From Candidatus Heimdallarchaeota archaeon (GTDB lineage: Archaea > Asgardarchaeota > Heimdallarchaeia > Hodarchaeales > Hodarchaeaceae): a stretch of DNA of 64,000 bases. The stretch lies in assembly GCA_020353515.1 (NCBI GenBank), contig CP070695.1, positions 4,529,414-4,593,413 of the forward strand, given 5' to 3'. Below, piece by piece: positions 1-25,608 of this stretch. A program made the translations under genes and the position numbers. Each line of letters opens with the position of its first letter. Within the stretch, counting starts at the first letter, position 1. The notes beneath the pieces are model-generated. The model did no database searches, was not told the DNA's origin, and saw only the letters and a list, made by a program, of their open reading frames with translations.

Positions 1-252
1 ATGATGTGGGGGTGGACTTTTCTTCTGTTTTGGGGTGTTCAAGACCCATTAGAAAGAAAAGGAACACTAATATTAACTGCATTCCCCGTTATAACTGGTT
101 TAGCGATCAGTAACGTGTTTGCTGGTATGAATAATATAATTTCGTTTACTAGCTTGATTATACGGCCTGCAATCTATCTAGTATTGTTTTCACTGTTCAC
201 AACAGCTTTTTTCTTGGCAGATCGTCTCCAAAAGAAGAATTTTAAAGCCTAA
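1..252 (+). CDS. Membrane protein, probably the C-terminal part of a gene truncated at the window edge
   Basis: Two to three hydrophobic segments and a basic C-terminal tail; the ORF begins at base 1. Confidence 0.6.
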   Translation: MMWGWTFLLFWGVQDPLERKGTLILTAFPVITGLAISNVFAGMNNIISFTSLIIRPAIYLVLFSLFTTAFFLADRLQKKNFKA

Positions 253-15099: not shown

Positions 15100-17004
15100 A
15101 TGACAGAACTTAGAACAGAGCTTAATCAGGTAATAGAACAAGGAAAACAAGCCCTAAACGAAAATGAAATAGATGAAGCCATCTTTGCTTTTGAAAGGGC
15201 AGTTCAGATTGCAAGTGAAGCCTCACCCTCACTAAATAGTATCATTGGCATTTCTTTCGCATATATAGCATTAGCTAATGGAAAGAAAGGAGAGATTGCA
15301 ATAGCACTTGAATATATTAATACTGCGGCTGAATTCTTTCCTGTAAACCCAGTAAATCCAGTAATATATGCCCAACTTCTTCTAGGACTTGGTATTGAAT
15401 TCCAGAAAATAAAATTACATGAATGTTCAACCATAATTTTGAAAAATGCCCTTACTCTGGCTAAAAGTAAAACGGTGGAGGTTGATATAGAGGTTATTTC
15501 ATTAGTAGCTCGCAATTTAGCATTTTCTTATAACAAAATAGGAAATAATGTTTCTTCTGCAAAATTGTACAGAATAGCTGCGGATTTGGAGGATGAACCT
15601 AAATCTGCGATTGTCCTGTATCGAAATTCAGCTTATTTATACTATCAAGAGAATATGAAAGAATTCAGTCTAGATATTCTTGAAACAGCTTTTAATAAAG
15701 CTGGAATTCTTGGAGACACTAATTGTCAGCTTGAAATTGCACATTTCCAAGGAGTAGTCTCTTATGAAATTAGTTCAAGCTATGTCCAAAGAGGTTACCT
15801 TGAGAAGGCAGTCGCATATCTAGATCTTTGTTATGATAAATTCACTTTCACAGAGGATTCTTTATGGGTAATTAAGGTTCTCTATGATAAAGCTATACTA
15901 TTAGAAAGGATAGGGAAGGATTGGCAAAGGAATAAGATGCTGGAAGAACTCATCAAGTTTAAAATTACTGATAAAAACAAGGAATATATTATTAAAGCTA
16001 TTCTCCTCTTGATAATTCATGCTTTGGAGGGGAACCATTATTCTAAAGCTGATTTTTACATTCAACAAGTGTCAGAGGCTCAATTACAAGATATAAACCC
16101 TCAATTAGGTCAAAAAATTCGAGAAATTCGAGAAATTTTAGAAATATCTCGTAGAAGGGGACAATTACACGCTGACATTCATTTTTCGCGGAAAGATCTG
16201 GATCTTCCTATCGATCAACTGCTTCCAGAGGGAAAAACTCCTACTCAGGATATTTCTCAAGAAGGAGAGAGGTTAGCAACCCTTCAGGTTCCTGAATTAG
16301 ATTTGACCGTTTCAAGAGCTATTTCATCTCATAAAATCAAACAACCAACAGTAGAAGTGCTTCAAGAGCTATTTACGACTTCTGAAGAAATTCAACCACA
16401 ACTGGCTGATCAAGAACCAATTTTACCAACTGTTCAAGAGTATGTACCAACTGAGGAACTACAAGAGGCAGAAATTGAACCAATATCTGATCCAACACCT
16501 GAATATGACCATGAAAAAACAATAGCTTTAGAAAGATTATTTAGAGCACATCAGGTGCCCCAAGAATCAATTATAACTTCTGATCCATTGATTTCTTCTT
16601 CAGAAATTGAATATTCCTTACCTGAGGGACCAATAAGTGAATCTATTGAAGAACAACCTCAGGTTACTAGCTCTCCAACTCCAATAATCTCGCAGGATGA
16701 AAATATCCGCTCAGAAGTTGTAAGTCGTTTACAAAGAGCTGGATGGGCAGTTGAACTTAATTTCACAAATCTCACACGAAGGGGTGCAGAACCTGATATT
16801 ATTGCATCAAAAGGTTTGATCAGAAAAACACGAAAGTTCATTTTTTTTGCTGAAAATCCTGCAGATGCAGAAATATGTTCGTTCTTACTCCAATCAAACC
16901 CTGAAAGAGGAGAAAAGCTGATTTTTTTACTCAGTGGTGATCCCAGGGATGCGAATATCTCCGTAGAGGTAAAATTATTGACCCAAATAGGCCAACTCTT
17001 TTGA
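15100..17004 (+). CDS. TPR solenoid plus acidic linker plus C-terminal degenerate PD-(D/E)xK-fold domain
   Basis: N-terminal TPR-like helices; E/P/Q-rich linker; EVVSRLQRAGWAV...EPDIIASK near the C-terminus. Confidence 0.7.
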   Translation: MTELRTELNQVIEQGKQALNENEIDEAIFAFERAVQIASEASPSLNSIIGISFAYIALANGKKGEIAIALEYINTAAEFFPVNPVNPVIYAQLLLGLGIEFQKIKLHECSTIILKNALTLAKSKTVEVDIEVISLVARNLAFSYNKIGNNVSSAKLYRIAADLEDEPKSAIVLYRNSAYLYYQENMKEFSLDILETAFNKAGILGDTNCQLEIAHFQGVVSYEISSSYVQRGYLEKAVAYLDLCYDKFTFTEDSLWVIKVLYDKAILLERIGKDWQRNKMLEELIKFKITDKNKEYIIKAILLLIIHALEGNHYSKADFYIQQVSEAQLQDINPQLGQKIREIREILEISRRRGQLHADIHFSRKDLDLPIDQLLPEGKTPTQDISQEGERLATLQVPELDLTVSRAISSHKIKQPTVEVLQELFTTSEEIQPQLADQEPILPTVQEYVPTEELQEAEIEPISDPTPEYDHEKTIALERLFRAHQVPQESIITSDPLISSSEIEYSLPEGPISESIEEQPQVTSSPTPIISQDENIRSEVVSRLQRAGWAVELNFTNLTRRGAEPDIIASKGLIRKTRKFIFFAENPADAEICSFLLQSNPERGEKLIFLLSGDPRDANISVEVKLLTQIGQLF

Positions 17005-17056
17005 AAAAATGTTTCGAGAATTAATAGGATTCAAAACTTCGTTATTAAGAGGAATT

Positions 17057-17713
17057 TCACTCTTGTAATTGAAATTTCATTCTTAGAAGCGAGGAAAATT
17101 TTTGGTACATTTCATCAATTGTCCCATCGCTTGTTAATCTCTCTAAAATTCCTTGCTGTTGATAAAATTCTATTAGAGGTTTTGTTTCATGTTCATATGT
17201 AGCTATCCTTTTTTTCACAGTTTCTTCTACATCATCTTCCCTTTGAAATAATCTCCCTGAACATTTGTCGCAGATTCCTTCCTTCTTTGAAGGACTGTAT
17301 TTTATATGGTAAATAGCTCCACATTGTTTGCAGGTTCGGCGGCCAGTAATTCGTTCAATTAAAAGACCGTAATTTACCTCAATATTAATAACAAAATCAA
17401 TGTTAGTTATCATCTTAAGATCCTGAGCTTGACTCAAATTCCGTGGATAACCATCTAAAATGAATCCTCTTATACAGTCGTCTTGATTCAATCTTTCCTT
17501 CAAAAGCTGCAAAACAATGTCATCAGGTACTAATTTTCCCGTATTCATAAATTTTTTTGCTTTTAATCCTAATTCTGTGCTTTTTTTGATTGCTGCTCTT
17601 AGTAGATCTCCTGTACTAATTTGTGGAATATTAAAGTCTTTCACTATGAGCTTTGCTTGTGTACCTTTCCCTGAACCTGGAGGACCTAGTAAAACCAGTT
17701 TCATATTAACCAT
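17057..17713 (-). CDS. adk: Adenylate kinase (bacterial/eukaryotic type with zinc-binding LID)
   Basis: GPPGSGKGT, ISTGDLLR, FILDGYPR, CKQC..CDKC, QREDD. Confidence 0.96.
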   Translation of the reverse strand: MVNMKLVLLGPPGSGKGTQAKLIVKDFNIPQISTGDLLRAAIKKSTELGLKAKKFMNTGKLVPDDIVLQLLKERLNQDDCIRGFILDGYPRNLSQAQDLKMITNIDFVINIEVNYGLLIERITGRRTCKQCGAIYHIKYSPSKKEGICDKCSGRLFQREDDVEETVKKRIATYEHETKPLIEFYQQQGILERLTSDGTIDEMYQKFSSLLRMKFQLQE

Positions 17714-17723
17714 TTCCTCTCCC

Positions 17724-18449
17724 TTAATTTAATGAAACGTCATTATTCAATTTTAAAAGGATATCTCTTGCTTTTGAAGCATTTTGCTCGTTTATTACGA
17801 AAATAATAATTAGATGGTCAGTGTGTTGAACCATGGTATCATAAATAGAAATAGCTTGGTCAGCAAGTAATGAAGAAACATGTGCTAGAATACCTGGAAT
17901 TTCTTGAGCTTTTGTTGGTAACATTAATTTAAGTAAACTGAGAGAATCTTGGAGTTTAAGAGTGTCAATGGCCTTAATAACTTCAGTCTCATCTAGAAAA
18001 GACTGCTCAGCCATCTTTTTAACATAAAACTCACTTCCACTATTATTAAGGTACACAGAACATATGTCATTACGTTCTAGTTGTTTAACTAAAATCCTTA
18101 AGACTTCATGAATATCTGTATCTTCATGAAAACGGATTTTGTAATGTTTCAATCCATCTGTAACCTCAGTAGTCCCTTTTTTCAGAATATCTTGTACTAA
18201 TTTTACACCGAGTAGCTCTTCCTGTTGTATTCGTAGTTTTTTGAGATATCTAGTTATGGCAACTGCAACATTGCCCTCTAATTTAACAGGATCTTTTGAT
18301 ATAAAATTTCCCTCTTTTATCAGCTGTGTTTTTATTCTTTTAGCGATTTCCCGCTGAGCAGTTTTTCTTTGCTGAAGTTCATGAACAAGTGAAGGGTCTT
18401 GTTCAAGTATTTCTCGTACAAATTTAGATACTGACTTTTCAACATGCAT
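17724..18449 (-). CDS. ACT-domain regulatory protein
   Basis: C-terminal PGILAHVSSLLADQAISIYD ACT motif; N-terminal HTH-like segment (VAVAITRY). Confidence 0.7.
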   Translation of the reverse strand: MHVEKSVSKFVREILEQDPSLVHELQQRKTAQREIAKRIKTQLIKEGNFISKDPVKLEGNVAVAITRYLKKLRIQQEELLGVKLVQDILKKGTTEVTDGLKHYKIRFHEDTDIHEVLRILVKQLERNDICSVYLNNSGSEFYVKKMAEQSFLDETEVIKAIDTLKLQDSLSLLKLMLPTKAQEIPGILAHVSSLLADQAISIYDTMVQHTDHLIIIFVINEQNASKARDILLKLNNDVSLN

Positions 18450-18817
18450 AAGAGCTCTTCCTTTGAATATACATCAAATAATCTTATTATAGATGGATGG
18501 AGACAATTATTTTTATTGTTAAGATTACTAGGGTATAATAGTATTTCCTAATTCAGATTTTGTTGATTACAAAGAGTTTCATACAAAAAATCTAGTGAAG
18601 ATTATCAATTACTCTGTTTTTTCATAACTTTTTATTTATTCTGAAAATAATTACGAATGATGAAACAAATTCATATATTTCATCAATAGTTAAAGGAATA
18701 TAATAAGCTAAATTACTTTTGATAGAATTCTTTTTAACCAGAATAATATTGTAGAAGTGTATCAAATAATAAAATCCAGATAAAGAATGTCTAATTCGAG
18801 ATTCTAAGGTTTGAACA

Positions 18818-19561
18818 TTGGGAAAATCTGATTTCTTCGTTCTATTGCCAGCGTTTAATGAAGAAAATACTTTACCGAAAGTTATTCAACAGCTATTAGA
18901 AATATTTTCTCCAGACCAGATAATTCTTGCTGATGACGGATCAACAGACAATACATCTAGTATTGCACGGGAATCAGGTATCAAGATTATTAGAAATAGA
19001 AATAACAGAGGAAAAGGATACATCCTAAGAAATTCCTTTGCCATCATTATTGATAAATTCCCTGATGTGAAGTGGGTTTTAACAGTTGATGCTGATGGAC
19101 AACATGATGTACGAGATATTCCTAGATTTATCCAAACTATAAATCATAACCCAAGAGTGGATATTATTGTAGGTAAACGTGATTATAATCAAATGCCTCC
19201 TATAAATTGGATCTCAAACAAAATAACTTCAAGTTGGTCCAATTTTTGGTTGAACTGGGATCTACATGATCTACAATGCGGCTTTAGGTGTTATAGAACA
19301 GACACTTTACGTCGTATCCTCGAAATTGGCTTAACGAAGAATAAATTTGATTTAGAAACAGAAATTCTAATTATTTCATGGATTTTAAATGAAAGAATTA
19401 TTGAGATTCCAATAAAAACTCTTTATCCCAATACAAGAAGGAAATCAAGAATTCAACCAGTAATCGATACTTTTCGATGGATACTTCTTGTATCTAAATT
19501 TGCTTTTTCTCTACAATTTACGACGAAAGTCTGGCAAAGACGTTATTTACATCGTTTGTGA
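18818..19561 (+). CDS. GT2 glycosyltransferase, polyprenol-phosphate glycosyltransferase (DPM1-like)
   Basis: LPAFNEE, DDGSTDNT, NRGKG, DADGQH, DLQCGFR, FDLETE. Confidence 0.92.
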   Translation: MGKSDFFVLLPAFNEENTLPKVIQQLLEIFSPDQIILADDGSTDNTSSIARESGIKIIRNRNNRGKGYILRNSFAIIIDKFPDVKWVLTVDADGQHDVRDIPRFIQTINHNPRVDIIVGKRDYNQMPPINWISNKITSSWSNFWLNWDLHDLQCGFRCYRTDTLRRILEIGLTKNKFDLETEILIISWILNERIIEIPIKTLYPNTRRKSRIQPVIDTFRWILLVSKFAFSLQFTTKVWQRRYLHRL

Positions 19562-19815: not shown

Positions 19816-20418
19816 ATGATTAAAAAGGATGAGATTGAAATATCCAGTTACAAAGCAGGTTCAGGGATTAAGATCATGAAACAGAAATTAGTTCTTAAAT
19901 TAGTACTACTTGGCGATCCAGGAGTTGGAAAAACGTCATTAATTTCACAATTCGTCCATGCACGCTTTCGACATTCATATCAACTCACAGTTGGATTAGA
20001 TATTTCTTCAAAACAGGTCAAGTTGGATGATGGACGAACAGTAACACTCTCAATAAATGATATTGGCGGACAAGCGCGGTTTGCTGCAATACGACATATG
20101 TTCTTCAAAGGGGCCCATCTTGCAATGTTTGTTTATGATGTGACTAGAGCTGAATCTTTGGAGAATATCAAAGATCCCTGGTACAAAGAATTAATGCAGT
20201 TTTGTGGTCAGCCTGGAAAAACAAAAGCTGCTATCCAAACAATCTTAGTTGGTAATAAAACTGATCTTGAAGATTATCGGATGGTTGAGGAAGATGAAGG
20301 GGGCCAGCTTGCCAATGAAATTAAAGCAATAGGACATATTTCCGCCTCCGCTAAAGAGAATATTCAGGTCGATAATGCTTTTAAGACTCTAGCTCAAAGT
20401 TTCTTTGATGAGATATAG
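19816..20418 (+). CDS. Rab-like small GTPase (Ras superfamily) with no prenylation tail
   Basis: G1 GDPGVGKT, G2 LTVGLD, G3 DIGGQ, RFAAIRHMFFKGA, YDVT, G4 NKTD, G5 SAK; the start may be MKQK at 19876. Confidence 0.93.
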   Translation: MIKKDEIEISSYKAGSGIKIMKQKLVLKLVLLGDPGVGKTSLISQFVHARFRHSYQLTVGLDISSKQVKLDDGRTVTLSINDIGGQARFAAIRHMFFKGAHLAMFVYDVTRAESLENIKDPWYKELMQFCGQPGKTKAAIQTILVGNKTDLEDYRMVEEDEGGQLANEIKAIGHISASAKENIQVDNAFKTLAQSFFDEI

Positions 20419-20456
20419 AAATAATACTAGTTTGATGAATTCTAGGAGTTATTTTC

Positions 20457-21329
20457 ATGGATATTGAGGCAGAATATTCATTTTTATCACATCTTCCTAC
20501 TCATTACTTTAAAAGATTAGTAGATAAGTGGGAAAACACCTCAATTGAATTGGAACCTAATGGCCTTCTTTCAAATGAAAATCGAGAAACTACTATGAGT
20601 TTTATTAGTAATATGAAGGACTCAAGACTCAAACAACTAAAAAAGCTCTCTGAAATACTCGATATCTCTGATGTGTGGTGGGAAATCTATCAATTTTCAG
20701 AGGTAATCCCTTTCTCTCATATTAAAAAGCGTCAAAAAGCTTTTAGTGTTGAGAAATATCTACCAGAAGATCATAGTAAAGTCAAAGGTATTTTTTCCAT
20801 AAAAGACATCAGTGAACATGCCATTTTATTACTTGCTGAATTTTCATCTAGATCCACGGCACTTAAACGGTTGTTCCGGTTTATCTATTTACCATCGGTT
20901 AAAACAATTCTTTTAGAACCGAAAGATCTATCAACAGAGATTTTAAATAATGAAATCCTACCATTTATAACAGCAGAATCAGATAAAATTACTCAAAAAC
21001 GTGTACGTGCTAGATTTGTTCGTGATTTAACAAAAGACCGAGACGAAGGAAAATTATCGCTTGCTCTTACACATCTCAAAATAAAGATTTCTTTAGAAAC
21101 CTCAGGAATTGAAGGCTTAAATCAAATTATAATTCAAGGAGACAATGTAATCAGGGGAGCCGAAACTTTAGAGCAACGACATGAGATATCCCTTAGATTT
21201 ATGAACTCTGGCCCATGGATTGCTGCTGGCACAAAAGATTTCTCTGTTGAAGTGGGAAAAGGACTCCAGATTCATCAATTAGAAGAAAGCTCCTTCAAAA
21301 ACCTTTCAACAGTACTCAGCTGGTTATAA
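20457..21329 (+). CDS. Uncharacterised protein; candidate CENP-N/Chl4-like protein
   Basis: The ORF is solid (GGAG RBS, operon spacing). Collinear motif similarity to CENP-N was seen by eye only (see findings); the confidence refers to the homology call. Confidence 0.55.
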   Translation: MDIEAEYSFLSHLPTHYFKRLVDKWENTSIELEPNGLLSNENRETTMSFISNMKDSRLKQLKKLSEILDISDVWWEIYQFSEVIPFSHIKKRQKAFSVEKYLPEDHSKVKGIFSIKDISEHAILLLAEFSSRSTALKRLFRFIYLPSVKTILLEPKDLSTEILNNEILPFITAESDKITQKRVRARFVRDLTKDRDEGKLSLALTHLKIKISLETSGIEGLNQIIIQGDNVIRGAETLEQRHEISLRFMNSGPWIAAGTKDFSVEVGKGLQIHQLEESSFKNLSTVLSWL

Positions 21330-21350: not shown

Positions 21351-23810
21351 ATGATGTTTCCTACAAGATACAGGTTTCTACAGGTCTTTTTTCCAATCTT
21401 TCTGATTACTACTTCCGTCATTTTCACTTCTACAAATCCAATTATTAGCTTTGTTGATAATCAGAATTCTTTTCCTTATATTTCTAAAAATCTTTCAAAA
21501 AAAGAGCTTTCAAAAGATTTTTTGATAATGTTTTATGATAAAATCCCAAATTTAGACCGCTTTGAACCTTTAATTAATAGGAAATTCTGTAATTTTCCTG
21601 TAATTCATATTAAATTCAATGATTCTGAAACAAAACAATCTTTCTTCGAGAACTATAATCATAAAATTTACCAAATGGAACCTAACCGTATTTTCAAGAG
21701 CTCTCCTCGATTTATTCCAGAACCTAACCTCAGTAAGAGTAGTATAAATACAGAAATCCAAGATTCAACGGGAGCGAGTGTCTTACATAGTTTAGGAATT
21801 GAGGGTGAAGGTGTAAAAATTGGAATTATTGATACAGGAGTAGACGATGATACGGCTATATTTGGAACACGTGTAGTAGATCGTGAATCGTTTGTAAGCA
21901 TTGAAAATGGCTATTCTGCTGATAGATTAAATCCAGAACCAGCTATGGATCACGGTACAAATGTCGCTAACCTTGCCGCGGGAAATACAAGGGGAATTGC
22001 ACCAAGAGCTGAGATATATAGTGCTAAAATAATTCATGATAATGTGATCACTGGTGCTGGTGGTGGAGGAGGTGAAGAAACTACTGTAGGAATGCTTGAA
22101 GCAATAGATTACCTTATTAATAATTCAATAGATGTTGTCAACATATCTCTTGGACAGTATCACAATTTAGCTAGTGGTTTAAGGGACGAAATTATCAATT
22201 ATGCGTCAATTATCCATAATATTGTTTTTACTGTATCTGCTGGTAATTCAGGAACATCTTATGGGGATAGAGGAACATTAAATAATCCAGCAACAGCTCT
22301 TCAATGTATTGCTGTTTCTGCCAGTGATATTAGTGGAATAAATATAGCTAATTTTGCATCACGAGGACCAAAGGTTGATTATTCCATTAAACCAGATATT
22401 ACGGCACCAGGTATTAACACTCCTTGGGAAGGAACATCTTTTGCCGCACCTATCGTTGCTGGTGGAGCAGCTTTGCTAATTAATTTCTTGAAAAATAAAG
22501 GTTTATCTTATTCAGCAGCTACTATTAAGGCTGCTCTCCTCGCTGGTGCGAGAACTCTTAACAAACCAATCTGGGAAGAAGGTGCAGGATTCATTAACAT
22601 CACACGATCTTTAGAGATTCTCAATTCAACAAATGAGGTTAATAACACCCCCGATCTAATATATCTTCATCCTCAAAAGCTACCATTTGATCCATATAGA
22701 GTCTTGTTTAATGGCAGCTCATTAATTTTTAATCTATCAGTCATAAGCAGTAGGGAGGTAAGTACAAGTTTAAATATCTCTGATTCAATTTCTGATTTCG
22801 TTAGTACTCCAGAAACTTCTTACATTCTAAATAATACAACTCTAGTTCCCATTAATTTCACAATACCAGCATCCTCTGAATCTCAGTACGTTTCAGGCTT
22901 CATTGAAATATCCAATGAATTTTTGATAATAGAGTTTGAAATTCGAGAGACAGATATTCAAATTTTATTTGATGAAACCGCAAATAGTATAGTTAGACAT
23001 GGGTACGGTACTGGATCTTATGAGATACGAGGAGATTCTTCAAATACAATTGGTCTATACTCAGCTTTCACACAGTTCCTAGCTTATGAACATAATTATA
23101 GTGTTACACCTCATGTAAAAGGAGAGTTGACTCTCACCAAAGTTTTAGAGTATGATGTACTGATTCTAGCAAATCCTTTTTCCAACTCCACTGATAAATA
23201 CATGGATTGGGTTGTAGATCCTAGTCCTGATTATCTAGCTTTGTCAAAAAAGTCATTAAATGCTGTTTACCAGTTCATTTCAAAGGGTGGAGGTTTATTG
23301 GTAATAAATGGTAATGATGATGCATATTACAATATTACAGGACTAAATGAGTTTCTTGAGCAATTTAATTTACAAATTCAATCTAAATTCTCAGGAGGAA
23401 TAGGTATAAGTGATATTGTTAACCCACAAGACTTTACTACAGATATATCCTCCTTTCCTTTTCGTGGAAATTATATCCAAGCATCTGGAACAAATACGCA
23501 GGTAATAGCAGAATACAATGATGAACCTACTTTAGCCCTCTATGAAGATCCTGGAGGTGGAAGGGTCTTACTTTTCGGAACCGATCTTATTTTTGATAAT
23601 TTTGGATTCTCTAGTTATGCTTATAATGGTAACAGCTTAGAAAACAGCATCTTAGCTTTGAATTCCATAACTTGGCTTGCAGCAGCAGAGAAAGAATTTG
23701 TTGAAACATCCACAAGTCTTCCAGAATTTCCATATCCTATAATCTTTTTGATGCTTATATTTTTTCTTGGGATCATTTACATTTTGCTTATTAACAGAAC
23801 AAAAAACTAA
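21351..23810 (+). CDS. Membrane-anchored S8 subtilase with SKI-1/S1P-like architecture
   Basis: Signal peptide, I9-like prodomain, IDTG, HGT, AGNSG, GTSFA, ILFDE-start GATase-like domain and a C-terminal TM (PEFP..). Confidence 0.9.
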   Translation: MMFPTRYRFLQVFFPIFLITTSVIFTSTNPIISFVDNQNSFPYISKNLSKKELSKDFLIMFYDKIPNLDRFEPLINRKFCNFPVIHIKFNDSETKQSFFENYNHKIYQMEPNRIFKSSPRFIPEPNLSKSSINTEIQDSTGASVLHSLGIEGEGVKIGIIDTGVDDDTAIFGTRVVDRESFVSIENGYSADRLNPEPAMDHGTNVANLAAGNTRGIAPRAEIYSAKIIHDNVITGAGGGGGEETTVGMLEAIDYLINNSIDVVNISLGQYHNLASGLRDEIINYASIIHNIVFTVSAGNSGTSYGDRGTLNNPATALQCIAVSASDISGINIANFASRGPKVDYSIKPDITAPGINTPWEGTSFAAPIVAGGAALLINFLKNKGLSYSAATIKAALLAGARTLNKPIWEEGAGFINITRSLEILNSTNEVNNTPDLIYLHPQKLPFDPYRVLFNGSSLIFNLSVISSREVSTSLNISDSISDFVSTPETSYILNNTTLVPINFTIPASSESQYVSGFIEISNEFLIIEFEIRETDIQILFDETANSIVRHGYGTGSYEIRGDSSNTIGLYSAFTQFLAYEHNYSVTPHVKGELTLTKVLEYDVLILANPFSNSTDKYMDWVVDPSPDYLALSKKSLNAVYQFISKGGGLLVINGNDDAYYNITGLNEFLEQFNLQIQSKFSGGIGISDIVNPQDFTTDISSFPFRGNYIQASGTNTQVIAEYNDEPTLALYEDPGGGRVLLFGTDLIFDNFGFSSYAYNGNSLENSILALNSITWLAAAEKEFVETSTSLPEFPYPIIFLMLIFFLGIIYILLINRTKN

Positions 23811-23870: not shown

Positions 23871-24419
23871 CTATACTCTTGGTTCGTCATCTAGTCCCAC
23901 ATATGATGAACTCTCTCTATCATCATATCCAACGGTTGATTCAGAAGTTAACTGATGAAAAATAATTTGAATTATTGGCATACCCGGTACGAGCTCCACA
24001 GGTGAATTCGCCTGATGAGCGATTTCGAGTGTTAAAGTAGTCGGATCTTTCAGTCCTGTCCCTGGGTTCACTAATCCTGCAGCTTGGACCACAATTCCTA
24101 AACGAGCTATTGATGATTTTCCTTCTAAAGTAGCTGCAAACTTCTTTGATATTGAAATTTTCTCAAGTGTCGAAGCAAGAACAAATTGATTGGGAGACAA
24201 CAAAAAAGCTTCATCTTTCTCTATCCGAAAAACTTCAGAATTCTTCAAAATAGCCTTTCGGTCATTTGGTCGGAACAATCTACCATGATGAAATACTAAA
24301 AAAGTGTCACCCAGTTTTAAGTCTATACTACATGGACCAACAGCCGATTTGTCGAAAGGTGTTATTAATATTTCTTGAGATTCAATTGCTGCTAATATAT
24401 CTTGATATGACAAAATCAT
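23871..24419 (-). CDS. dcd: dCTP deaminase
   Basis: MILS..DI, PCSIDLKLG, EGKSSIARLG, TLEI, PGMPIIQIIF. Confidence 0.9.
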   Translation of the reverse strand: MILSYQDILAAIESQEILITPFDKSAVGPCSIDLKLGDTFLVFHHGRLFRPNDRKAILKNSEVFRIEKDEAFLLSPNQFVLASTLEKISISKKFAATLEGKSSIARLGIVVQAAGLVNPGTGLKDPTTLTLEIAHQANSPVELVPGMPIIQIIFHQLTSESTVGYDDRESSSYVGLDDEPRV

Positions 24420-24537
24420 TGTTTATTTTCACCGAATTTATTTCTGTACAACCAGACAAATTCCTTCTTGTCTGATTAATGTCTATTGTTTCAATTGAAA
24501 TAAATTTATTAGCGGGGACGAGTGATATAGAGCTAAC

Positions 24538-25608
24538 ATGAATGAATCCCATCAAGACCGGTTAAAAGTAGTTTTAATGAGAATTATTGAAGGATTTTCC
24601 GATTACTTTGTCTCTAGACTAGAGAAATCTTATCATCAGAGTCCAACAACTATCGATGTTCGAAATATTTCTGTAGAGCGAAAATTAGGGACTACAGGCA
24701 TTCATATAGTCAAGGTTCAACTCGAATCAGACTTAGGTTTAGATGAAGCCAGTATTGCCGTAAAGATCTACGATGAACAAGAACAAGCCTTAGATGTAGT
24801 TAAACGAATCAATATTGTGAAGCAACGTCTTTCTCAGAAAAAATATTCTCCATTTGGGATATCATCGGCTGCAGTCATCTTCTTCTCTAGAAGCGTGATA
24901 GTCATGGAAGGAATACAGGGTGATGTTTTCCGTGATTCCAAAATTCCACGGCCTCAAAAATATCGGTATGCAGGAAGAAGTCTTGCTGCTTTTCATGGTT
25001 CTGAATCAGATCACTGTTGGTTTGATAAATACAAACTGTTACTATCAAGGAGTTTGGAGAATTTACCGACAACAAGGGAATTCAAACAATCCCTAAGTGC
25101 CATGTTTGCTGATGTAGTGCCTCTAGCTGAACAAGCTTCTCATTTATCAGGTTCTATTAGCTTTGGAGATTTCCATCCTGGAAATCTAATCTTTGATGTT
25201 CGAATAGGCCAAAAACCAATGATAATTACCCACCTTATTGATCCAGAATATCTAGATACCTCAACGGAACACGATCGTTTGGAGGATATTTGTAATTTCT
25301 TTGCTGTTGAAGCTGTTGACCAATACCGTCAAGATAGAGAATTGACCAAGTTTCGTATGAATGTCAAATCCTTTTTATCGGGGTATAGAGAGGTTCTCGC
25401 TCATGAACAGACCTCCTTTCAAAATTATTATTCTGGAGGTAATTATATCCCTGTAAATTTCCATTTAGCCTTAATGATCCTTATGAGTATCATCAACATC
25501 CAGGACATGGAAGACCTCTTTGGTGGTGAGCGTGGTATCCAAAATGAAGTACTTCTACGTTGTCAATTGATTGAAAAGCTTTTGAATTGGAATTCTTTTC
25601 CGGATTAG
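24538..25608 (+). CDS. APH/choline kinase-like phosphotransferase
   Basis: AVK, LAAFH, GDFHPGN (Brenner motif), LIDPE, D..D. Confidence 0.8.
   Translation: MNESHQDRLKVVLMRIIEGFSDYFVSRLEKSYHQSPTTIDVRNISVERKLGTTGIHIVKVQLESDLGLDEASIAVKIYDEQEQALDVVKRINIVKQRLSQKKYSPFGISSAAVIFFSRSVIVMEGIQGDVFRDSKIPRPQKYRYAGRSLAAFHGSESDHCWFDKYKLLLSRSLENLPTTREFKQSLSAMFADVVPLAEQASHLSGSISFGDFHPGNLIFDVRIGQKPMIITHLIDPEYLDTSTEHDRLEDICNFFAVEAVDQYRQDRELTKFRMNVKSFLSGYREVLAHEQTSFQNYYSGGNYIPVNFHLALMILMSIINIQDMEDLFGGERGIQNEVLLRCQLIEKLLNWNSFPD

What the first reader, a model, noticed from the sequence alone, without database searches (positions are those of the whole stretch)
20457..21329. Candidate archaeal homologue of the kinetochore protein CENP-N/Chl4
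Seen: a 290-aa ORF with no standard prokaryotic motif. Compared by eye with human CENP-N as I recall it, similar blocks occur in the same order along the whole length: LSHLPTHYFKRLVDKW vs ILKIPMNELTTILKAW; ILDISDVWWEIYQFS vs LLDII..KVWEVFQMS; FSIKDISEHAILLLAEF vs VSFRETEENAVWIRIAW; RFIYLPSVKTILL vs YVVYYSQTPYAFT; KITQKRVRARFVRDL vs QIVKMDLRSRYLDSL; LALTHLKIKI vs QLEFAQYKLE; IIIQGDNVIRGAETL vs a Chl4-type xFxGxx[IV]xxGxxxL. Established: CENP-N (N-terminal pyrin-like domain plus TBP-like CENP-L/N fold) binds CENP-A nucleosomes in the CCAN, and Asgard archaea have histones. Inference: this may be a prokaryotic CENP-N-like chromatin or segregation factor. I do not know of one having been described, but I cannot check the literature, and the alignment is low-identity and unscored.
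Basis: partly seen in the sequence, partly recalled or inferred. Interest (0 to 1): 0.92.

Follow-up and report, generated by a model that had tools for sequence, protein, structure and literature searches.

The report
Asgard protein folded like CENP-L/CENP-N
This unannotated gene of a Hodarchaeales-type Asgard archaeon encodes a conserved, single-copy protein whose predicted shape, but not its sequence, best matches the kinetochore DNA-clamp proteins CENP-L and CENP-N (the bacterial DNA ring RdgC comes close behind). It is paired with its own Rab-like GTPase, so it is a testable candidate archaeal relative of the kinetochore core.

Summary
The 290-aa ORF at 20457-21329 (+) is real. It is present in 77 of 82 genomes of its class, almost always as one copy, and in several other Asgard families.

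No sequence method links it to any known family. Pfam, NCBIfam, PADLOC, PHROGs, PDB profile searches and the Pfam CENP-N, CENP-L and RdgC models all give nothing at E<=10.

Two independent AlphaFold models were made: this protein (pLDDT 86) and a relative that is 18% identical (pLDDT 91). Both have only CENP-L, CENP-N, Iml3 and Chl4 as top Foldseek hits (E about 1e-5).
- VIA-align Z for CENP-L is 9.8 and 12.2.
- RdgC scores 8.4 and 9.4.
- Nothing else exceeds about 6 for the second model.

The domain order is that of CENP-N: N-terminal helical domain, then an LN-homology-type domain, then a dimerisation-type domain.

The gene sits directly behind a dedicated, catalytically intact Rab-like GTPase in several different neighbourhoods. 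These GTPases form their own clade. A predicted complex gets weak support. Other lineages have a Zn-ribbon/winged-helix protein in the GTPase's place.

My reading is a dimeric DNA clamp of the RdgC/CENP-LN class, GTPase-coupled in this lineage. Homology to CENP-L/N specifically is plausible but unproven.

The scan found the same fold earlier on orthologues in other genomes. I found no paper describing it.

The parts
19876..20418 (+). Rab-like small GTPase, the dedicated upstream partner gene. The ORF opens at 19816; the likely start is the ATG at 19876, giving 180 aa like the 179-183-aa orthologues.
   Evidence: Pfam Ras E 3.7e-45. Best PDB matches are Ypt7/Rab7, E 2e-31. The P-loop, switch I Thr, DxxGQ, NKxD and SAK motifs are invariant in 40 sequences. 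Orthologues are 79-97% identical. The GTPases next to this gene family form a clade apart from 37 paralogues in this genome.
20443..20447 (+). AGGAG Shine-Dalgarno-like motif in the 38-bp gap between the GTPase gene and the ORF
   Evidence: Read directly from the sequence. The short gap is kept in relatives.
20457..20660 (+). N-terminal helical domain of the protein (residues 1-68, five helices). It carries the family-invariant L10, P14, F18 and W25.
   Evidence: AF2 model, helices 3-67. Invariant columns. This domain is included in the alignments to Chl4 (model 2..183) and to the CENP-N N-terminal fragment. It is absent from the RdgC and Iml3 alignments, which start at model residue 56-71.
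20661..21041 (+). First alpha/beta domain (residues 69-195), TBP-like, equivalent to the LN-homology domain. It is basic (pI 9.4), with conserved R132, K/R137, R141, K181, R184, R186 and K/R189.
21042..21329 (+). Second alpha/beta domain (residues 196-290, plus the stop codon), equivalent to the dimerisation domain of CENP-L/N and the base domain of RdgC. It is the most conserved part and carries the superfamily motif E-x-S-G-x-x-G-L ... G-x-x-V-x-x-G ... R-x-E ... G-P-W ... T.
   Evidence: Alignments A1 and A3. Model elements 206-288. Covered by the CENP-L, Iml3 and RdgC alignments through residue 290.
21351..23810 (+). Membrane-anchored S8 subtilase, 21 bp downstream. It is the third gene of the conserved GTPase / CENP-LN-like / S8 triad of this order.
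   Evidence: Pfam Peptidase_S8 E 2e-39 and DUF7408. The triad is kept where the upstream genes differ but not in every lineage.

Best explanation
The gene encodes an undescribed Asgard family of the RdgC / RexA / CENP-L / CENP-N structural class. All characterised members of that class are dimers that clamp or encircle double-stranded DNA. The protein has three parts in CENP-N order: a helical N-domain, a basic TBP-like domain of the LN-homology type, and a strongly conserved C-terminal domain of the dimerisation type. I infer that two copies pair through the C-terminal domains and hold DNA between the basic middle domains. A homodimer is expected because the gene is single-copy. I also infer a housekeeping role in chromosome handling rather than defence. 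In Hodarchaeales and some other Asgard lineages, the clamp is coupled to a dedicated, catalytically competent Rab-like GTPase encoded next to it. That GTPase probably binds the clamp and switches its assembly or location. Shown here: the gene, its conservation and single-copy status, the fold match, and the GTPase linkage. Inferred: dimerisation, DNA binding, GTPase control and common descent with CENP-L/N.
For: Fold:
- The model of this protein (pLDDT 86, pTM 0.86) gives Foldseek top-23 hits that are all CENP-L/N/Iml3/Chl4, at E 1.7e-5 to 3.5e-3. RdgC follows at E>=0.036.
- An unbiased scan of 48,161 chains gives the same top group.

Function of the fold class:
- RdgC is a DNA ring and CENP-LN a DNA vault (10.1101/2022.01.06.475204).
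- RexA/RdgC/Iml3/Chl4 share a DNA-binding scaffold (PMC11077077).
- GAPS4b is predicted to be a dimeric DNA ring (PMC13748975).

Housekeeping character:
- The gene is present in 77 of 82 genomes of the class, nearly always once.
- It is a single copy in this genome.
- It has no PADLOC hit.

DNA leads:
- The middle domain has pI 9.4 and conserved Arg/Lys positions.
Those are DNA-positioning or DNA-contact residues (PMC5777823).
- In four other families, the upstream partner is a Zn-ribbon plus winged-helix protein.

GTPase link:
- A GTPase is adjacent in three different neighbourhoods of the class.
- It is also adjacent, co-oriented or divergent, in families f2, f32, f17, f26 and f27.
- The adjacent GTPases of the class form a clade (SH-aLRT 94) that excludes all 37 paralogues of this genome.
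- Genomes without the adjacency lack a close orthologue.
- Predicted complex with GTP and Mg: weak support. The score was 0.36 against a best control of 0.00. That mark was reached by 58 of 80 solved complexes and 2 of 110 mismatched pairs. However, scores of 0.60 or under came from only 7 of those 80 solved complexes and from both mismatches that passed. The runs agree in at least 92% of contacts, and the partner's pLDDT is at least 84.

Dimer lead: one related lineage carries two tandem paralogues, 27% identical, behind the GTPase.
Against: - No sequence-level signal to any member of the class.
- TM-scores are modest (0.35-0.47 over whole chains; up to 0.53 normalised by target length for the CENP-N N-terminal fragment) and rmsd is 4-6 A.
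- This window's protein is near-neutral overall (pI 6.7). The invariant C-terminal motif is rich in acidic residues.
- Few basic columns stay conserved across the wide family.
- In this order the gene is co-transcribed with an extracellular membrane protease, which fits a DNA role poorly.
- Dimerisation and DNA binding were not tested.
- The complex prediction is only a weak pass.
- A language-model feature search puts bacterial hypothetical clusters nearest (0.91-0.92; one of them carries GAPS4b_N in 15% of members). CENP-N scores only 0.81. Unsolved prokaryotic families may therefore be closer than CENP-L/N.
Confidence: 0.5

Rival explanations
1. It is a true archaeal orthologue or ancestor of CENP-N/Chl4 itself, recognising histone-based chromatin as CENP-N recognises the CENP-A nucleosome.
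For: - The blocks are colinear with real CENP-N segments, including P17, R194 and R196.
- The family is concentrated in the archaeal class named as closest to eukaryotes (abstract of 10.1101/2024.07.04.601786).
Against: - CENP-L, not CENP-N, is the best structural match in both models.
- There is no Pfam CENP-N hit.
- No second paralogue exists to play CENP-L.
- RdgC is nearly as close.
- Nothing here bears on histone contact.
[quoted passage not shown] A pre-duplication relative would then be co-orthologous to both, not to CENP-N.
Confidence: 0.12
2. It is a cytoplasmic effector, regulator or adaptor of the neighbouring Rab-like GTPase in a membrane module (glycosyltransferase, GTPase, this protein, membrane subtilase). 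The TBP-like domains would serve as protein-binding platforms, as in adaptin appendages or Roco COR domains, and there would be no DNA role. The resemblance to CENP-L/N would then be fold reuse.
For: - The GTPase / protein / S8 protease triad is conserved with tight spacing across the order.
- The complex prediction is a weak pass: 0.36 against 0.00, with the counts given under the best explanation.
- The GTPase is Rab7/Ypt7-like.
Against: - Those matches cover one domain (80-95 residues). They lie 3-6 Z units below the two- and three-domain matches to CENP-L/N/RdgC.
- The protein persists, single-copy, in many families that lack both the adjacent GTPase and a close orthologue of it.
- In those families it is paired with a Zn-ribbon/winged-helix protein instead.
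- There is no Pfam COR hit.
Confidence: 0.2
3. It is an archaeal counterpart of the bacterial/phage RdgC, RexA or GAPS4b rings. It would act as a recombination modulator or as the DNA-sensing part of a defence system, with no special relation to kinetochore proteins.
For: - The Atlas structure and feature searches list bacterial hypothetical clusters, RdgC and GAPS4b_N clusters among the nearest.
- GAPS4b is predicted to be a DNA ring.
Against: - The gene is near-universal and single-copy with stable synteny in its class. This is unlike defence genes.
- There is no nuclease or RexB-like partner and no PADLOC or PHROG hit.
- The RdgC and Iml3 alignments leave out the N-terminal helical domain; the alignments to Chl4, CENP-N and human CENP-L include it.
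- Foldseek prefers CENP-L/N by 2-3 orders of magnitude in both models.
Confidence: 0.13

Closest known systems
CENP-L / Iml3 (inner kinetochore CCAN; Pfam PF13092; PDB 7xho_L, 7pkn_L, 4it3)
   Different: - No sequence similarity: 7-12% identity in structural alignments, and the Pfam model is silent.
- The protein is archaeal and single-copy, so it has no CENP-N partner.
- It has its own invariant C-terminal motif.
- It is linked to an active GTPase.
CENP-N / Chl4 (Pfam PF05238; PDB 6eqt, 6c0w_K, 7pkn_N, 8ovw_N)
   Different: - No profile hit.
- It scores lower than CENP-L.
- Whether the N-domain is a pyrin fold was not tested on its own.
- There is no evidence of nucleosome recognition.
RdgC (bacterial recombination-associated DNA ring; Pfam PF04381; PDB 2owl, 2owy)
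   Different: - The RdgC alignment leaves out the N-terminal helical domain (it starts at model residue 56-68).
- Foldseek E is 100-1000 times weaker.
- No Pfam hit.
- It is bacterial.
CENP-M (pseudo-GTPase of the CCAN) beside CENP-LN
   Same: CENP-M is a small-GTPase-fold protein that binds near the CENP-LN dimerisation domains (10.1101/2022.01.06.475204). Here a small GTPase is genetically coupled to a CENP-LN-fold protein.
   Different: CENP-M has lost all nucleotide-binding motifs (PMC4080450), whereas this GTPase keeps them all. No comparison of the two was run. The parallel is an analogy, not a tested relationship.

Membership tests
CENP-N / Chl4 (PF05238) | Significant match to the family profile | tested here: not met
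   hmmscan against Pfam at E<=10 gives no hit for this protein or for 10 relatives. PF05238 searched against the whole genome in six frames gives no match at E<=10. PDB profile searches list no CENP-N.
CENP-N / Chl4 (PF05238) | N-terminal helical (pyrin-type) domain followed by the CENP-L/N homology domain | tested here: met
CENP-N / Chl4 (PF05238) | Heterodimer with a CENP-L/Iml3 paralogue through the C-terminal domain | tested here: not met
   The family profile finds one copy only in this genome at E<=10 and one copy in nearly all relatives. A tandem paralogue pair exists in one related lineage only.
CENP-N / Chl4 (PF05238) | [quoted passage not shown] | not testable with these tools
   This needs binding assays with archaeal histone-DNA complexes.
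CENP-L / Iml3 (PF13092) | Significant match to the family profile | tested here: not met
   No hit at E<=10.
CENP-L / Iml3 (PF13092) | Two-domain fold: LN-homology domain plus dimerisation domain | tested here: met
RdgC (PF04381) | Significant match to the family profile | tested here: not met
   No hit at E<=10 in the genome or in the protein.
RdgC (PF04381) | RdgC-type two-domain scaffold | tested here: met
RdgC (PF04381) | Ring-shaped homodimer that binds dsDNA | not tested
A homodimer fold and DNA-binding assays are listed as next steps.
Roco COR domain (partner of Roc GTPases) | COR profile or fold match across the protein | tested here: inconclusive

The most novel reading that the evidence does not exclude
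The clamp protein and its private Rab-like GTPase descend from the same archaeal module that gave rise to the CENP-L/CENP-N vault and the pseudo-GTPase CENP-M of the kinetochore's CCAN. On this reading, a GTPase-bound dimeric DNA clamp already existed in the Heimdallarchaeial ancestors of eukaryotes. The clamp gene duplicated into CENP-L and CENP-N, as it did independently in one Hodarchaeales-order lineage. The GTPase later lost nucleotide binding.
Probability: 0.15. Interest if true: 0.95.

Novelty: new variant of a known kind. Interest (0 to 1): 0.77.

Why it matters
The origin of the kinetochore is an open problem. The most thorough survey found no significant sequence relatives for CENP-L and CENP-N, only generic TBP-like folds (PMC6601020). 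The only prokaryotic structural relative discussed for CENP-LN is bacterial RdgC.

This family offers something new:
- It is conserved and single-copy, and it is found in the archaeal class named as closest to eukaryotes.
- It has the CENP-N domain order.
- In both models it is closer to CENP-L than RdgC is.
- It has a dedicated small-GTPase partner.

That gives a concrete protein pair on which descent of the CCAN core from archaeal chromosome machinery can be tested, by structure determination, DNA binding, GTPase binding and localisation.

Even if the kinetochore link fails, this is an uncharacterised, near-universal Heimdallarchaeial protein. It is coupled either to a GTPase or to a Zn-ribbon/winged-helix protein, and that alone makes it worth characterising.

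Tried and rejected
- **Sequence routes.** All came back empty. These were phmmer and two profiles against PDB; Pfam, NCBIfam, PADLOC and PHROGs; and the Pfam CENP-L, CENP-N and RdgC models on the whole genome.
- **Wide searches for eukaryotic relatives.** An exhaustive profile search of 1.84 billion representatives found 32 proteins. Those I traced to genomes or named records are Asgard. A broad-profile search of 5.8 billion proteins listed no record named as eukaryotic.
- **Profile-profile comparison with CENP-L/N.** This could not be run, because no tool supplies eukaryotic CENP-L/N sequences.
- **Second paralogue in the window's genome.** None was found.
- **The 258-aa downstream neighbour in another family as a hidden paralogue.** hhalign gives probability 0.1%, so this was rejected.
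- **Orthology of the divergently oriented GTPases in other classes.** Reciprocal searches were unresolved: tied-best for one GTPase and rank 8 for the other. The tree neither unites nor separates them firmly.
- **Identity of the Zn-ribbon/winged-helix partner.** The Atlas search gave only scores under 0.9.
- **Literature.** Searches for an Asgard CENP-L/N, kinetochore or CCAN report found none. The main text of three structure-based Asgard papers holds none of these words. Their supplements are not held.

Full report
**The gene**

The ORF at 20457-21329 (+) encodes 290 residues. It follows a Ras-family GTPase gene by 38 bp, with an AGGAG motif about 9 nt before its ATG. An 819-aa membrane-anchored S8 subtilase gene follows it after 21 bp. 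The window has about 35% G+C throughout. The assembly is a single 4.94-Mb contig.

**Conservation**

A word-indexed search found 79 relatives of 45-84% identity. All are unnamed 'hypothetical' proteins of Hodarchaeales, Hodarchaeota or Heimdallarchaeota MAGs. An exhaustive profile search added about 30 more distant members. Records for these again name Hodarchaeales and Heimdallarchaeota.

In the 57-sequence alignment the C-terminal third is almost invariant. Across the wide family a shared motif survives: E-x-S-G-x-x-G-L, G-x-x-V-x-x-G, R-x-E, G-P-W, T.

I surveyed 400 genomes of the phylum.
- The gene is present in 77 of 82 genomes of the window's class (families f1-f7), almost always once.
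- It is present in families f13, f14, f17 and f25-f28.
- It is absent or nearly absent from large families: f12 0/19, f19 0/14, f20 1/135.
- The window's own genome has exactly one copy.

All were negative.
- No Pfam family matches at E<=10 for this protein or for ten relatives.
- NCBIfam, PADLOC and PHROGs give nothing.
- phmmer and two profiles against all PDB sequences give no CENP, Chl4, Iml3 or RdgC hit at E<=10.
- The Pfam CENP-L, CENP-N and RdgC models find nothing in the six-frame translation of the genome at E<=10.

They are colinear with the archaeal blocks at 10-25, 113-129 and 177-191. The block pairs share only 10 of 71 residues, and they were chosen by eye. The observation therefore stands as positional colinearity, not as scored similarity.

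**Structure-level tests**

These were positive.

*Model 1, this protein.* An AlphaFold2 model built from the 57-sequence alignment is confident (pLDDT 86.1, pTM 0.86). It shows a five-helix N-domain (residues 3-67) and two alpha/beta domains (74-192 and 206-288).
- Foldseek against the PDB returns only CENP-L, CENP-N, Iml3 and Chl4 chains as its 23 best hits (E 1.7e-5 to 3.5e-3, probability 0.98-1.00). RexA, RdgC and RnlA come later at E>=0.025.
- The second look at Foldseek's own hits gives CENP-L 9.2-9.8 over 206-216 residues, Chl4 8.5-8.9, RdgC 8.1-8.4 and Iml3 8.3-8.4.
- By the tool's own caution, values near 8 are not decisive.

*Model 2, an independent replicate.* I modelled a member of the most distant subfamily, P0098, which is 18% identical. 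The model has pLDDT 90.7.
- Its 18 best Foldseek hits are again all CENP-L/N/Iml3 (E 1.4e-5 to 4.9e-4), with RdgC at 1.2e-3.
- Chl4 scores 9.4, RdgC 8.9-9.4, Iml3 8.9-9.3 and the CENP-N N-terminal fragment 8.8-8.9 (177-180 of about 205 residues).
- There is then a clear gap to 6.0-6.4 for YejK and an adaptin appendage.

*Domain coverage.* RdgC and Iml3 align only from model residue 56-71 onward. Chl4 and CENP-N align from residue 1-3, and human CENP-L from residue 13-16. The helical N-domain therefore has a counterpart in Chl4, CENP-N and human CENP-L, but not in yeast Iml3 or RdgC.

*ESM Atlas.* A structural search lists a CENP-L cluster (TM 0.52/0.59). It also lists unnamed bacterial and Thermoproteota clusters, RdgC and GAPS4b_N clusters at similar TM. 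A language-model feature search puts bacterial hypothetical clusters first (0.91-0.92) and a CENP-N cluster at 0.81.

*My conclusion on the fold.* The fold class is well supported. Among solved structures, CENP-L/N is the nearest. Unsolved prokaryotic families could be as near.

**What the fold class does**

Iml3 has been recognised as a structural homologue of RdgC since 2013. RexA, RdgC, Iml3 and Chl4 are described as one DNA-binding scaffold that dimerises through an extended sheet (PMC11077077). CENP-LN forms a DNA-gripping vault and is thought to derive from a homodimeric DNA-binding singleton (10.1101/2022.01.06.475204). GAPS4b is predicted to form a dimeric ring around DNA (PMC13748975).

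By analogy, a single-copy member is expected to form a homodimeric DNA clamp. Supporting hints from this protein:
- The middle domain is basic (pI 9.4), although the whole protein has pI 6.7 here and 6.8-9.6 in relatives.
- R132, K/R137, R141, K181, R184, R186 and K/R189 are conserved within the orthologue group.
R184 and R186 face CENP-N R194 and R196. Pentakota et al. assign these CENP-N residues to positioning on, or contact with, DNA (PMC5777823).
- I could not obtain residue-level structural alignments, so this equivalence is a lead only.

**Partners**

The GTPase keeps every nucleotide-binding and catalytic motif. It is most like Ypt7/Rab7. Its C-terminus has no cysteine, so I see no site for prenylation. 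It is far more conserved (79-97% identity) than the clamp-like protein.

It lies directly upstream in three different neighbourhoods of the class:
- glycosyltransferase / GTPase / X / S8;
- KaiC-like ATPase / GTPase / X / S8;
- divergent GT4 / GTPase / X / GCV_T.

Sampling twenty further genomes showed the following.
- A GTPase is adjacent and co-oriented in families f2 and f32.
- A GTPase is adjacent but divergently transcribed in f17, f26 and f27.
- A roughly 140-aa Zn-ribbon plus winged-helix protein occupies that position in f3-f6.

The window's genome holds about 40 Rab/Ras-like paralogues. By my estimate, chance adjacency is of the order of 2% per genome.

In a tree with 37 of those paralogues, the seven X-adjacent GTPases of the class form one clade (SH-aLRT 94). 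The two sampled from other classes form another (97), and a single origin is not excluded. Five genomes without the adjacency have no close orthologue of the GTPase; the best match is 48% identical.

A fold of the pair with GTP and Mg passed the mark only weakly. The score was 0.36 against a best control of 0.00. That mark was reached by 58 of 80 solved complexes and 2 of 110 mismatched pairs. Scores of 0.60 or under came from only 7 of those 80 solved complexes and from both mismatches that passed. The runs agree in at least 92% of contacts, and the partner's pLDDT is at least 84.

Given the genomic prior, I read this as modest support for binding. Many lineages keep the protein without the GTPase. 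The GTPase therefore looks like a lineage-specific regulator rather than part of the core function.

**A duplication**

In one related lineage the arrangement is GTPase / X1 (311 aa) / X2 (314 aa) / S8 protease. X1 and X2 are 27% identical. A tandem pair of diverged paralogues is what one expects if the protein works as a dimer. It mirrors, independently, the duplication proposed for CENP-L and CENP-N.

**Known versus new**

It is already known that CENP-L/N share a fold with bacterial RdgC and with TBP. It is also known that CENP-M, a pseudo-GTPase, binds near the CENP-LN dimerisation domains.

I found no paper reporting an Asgard protein of this class. Supplements of the structure-based Asgard surveys are not held.

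Earlier agents of this scan reached the same fold assignment on orthologues in other genomes. I repeated and extended those tests here and do not count their notes as evidence.

**Verdict**

- The protein is a new, Asgard-specific family of the RdgC/CENP-L/N structural class.
- It most likely acts as a dimeric DNA clamp and is coupled in this lineage to a private Rab-like GTPase.
- Specific descent shared with CENP-L/N is plausible. The points for it are the best structural match in two independent models, the CENP-N-like domain order and the phyletic position.
- That descent is unproven. There is no sequence signal, and the fold is widespread in prokaryotes.

Noticed in passing
L045:70-5335 (GCA_027053755.1 contig); also L024: The arrangement is GTPase, then two tandem copies of the CENP-L/N-like gene (311 and 314 aa, 27% identical), then the S8 protease. 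This is an old duplication that could give a heterodimer.
   Followed up: partly
L025-L032 (families f3-f6); own genome G000:C1:2745795-2746202, outside the window: A conserved protein of about 140 aa, with a Zn ribbon and a winged helix and no known family, sits directly upstream of the clamp-like gene in four families. ThiF and a DEAD/DUF5814 helicase are often nearby. This genome keeps a copy elsewhere.
   Followed up: partly
window 21351-23810 (+): An 819-aa S8 subtilase with an N-terminal hydrophobic segment, a DUF7408-like region and a C-terminal membrane anchor. It is kept downstream of the GTPase/clamp pair across the order. Other first readers of the scan called it site-1-protease-like, which I did not test.
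   Followed up: no
whole genome G000: There are about 40 Rab/Ras-like small GTPase paralogues in 4.94 Mb, several of them in tandem pairs, for example near 2.09, 2.435, 4.60 and 4.61 Mb.
   Followed up: partly
L041:2734-3272 (G303, a 1.4-Mb one-contig genome): The GTPase next to the clamp-like gene is split into two ORFs of 94 and 83 aa. This could be a frameshift, a decaying gene or an assembly error.
   Followed up: no
window 15100-19561 and 23871-25608: Synteny is long and stable across relatives: a 634-aa TPR-like protein, adenylate kinase, a 241-aa ACT-domain protein and a GT2 glycosyltransferase upstream; dCTP deaminase and an APH-like kinase downstream.
   Followed up: no
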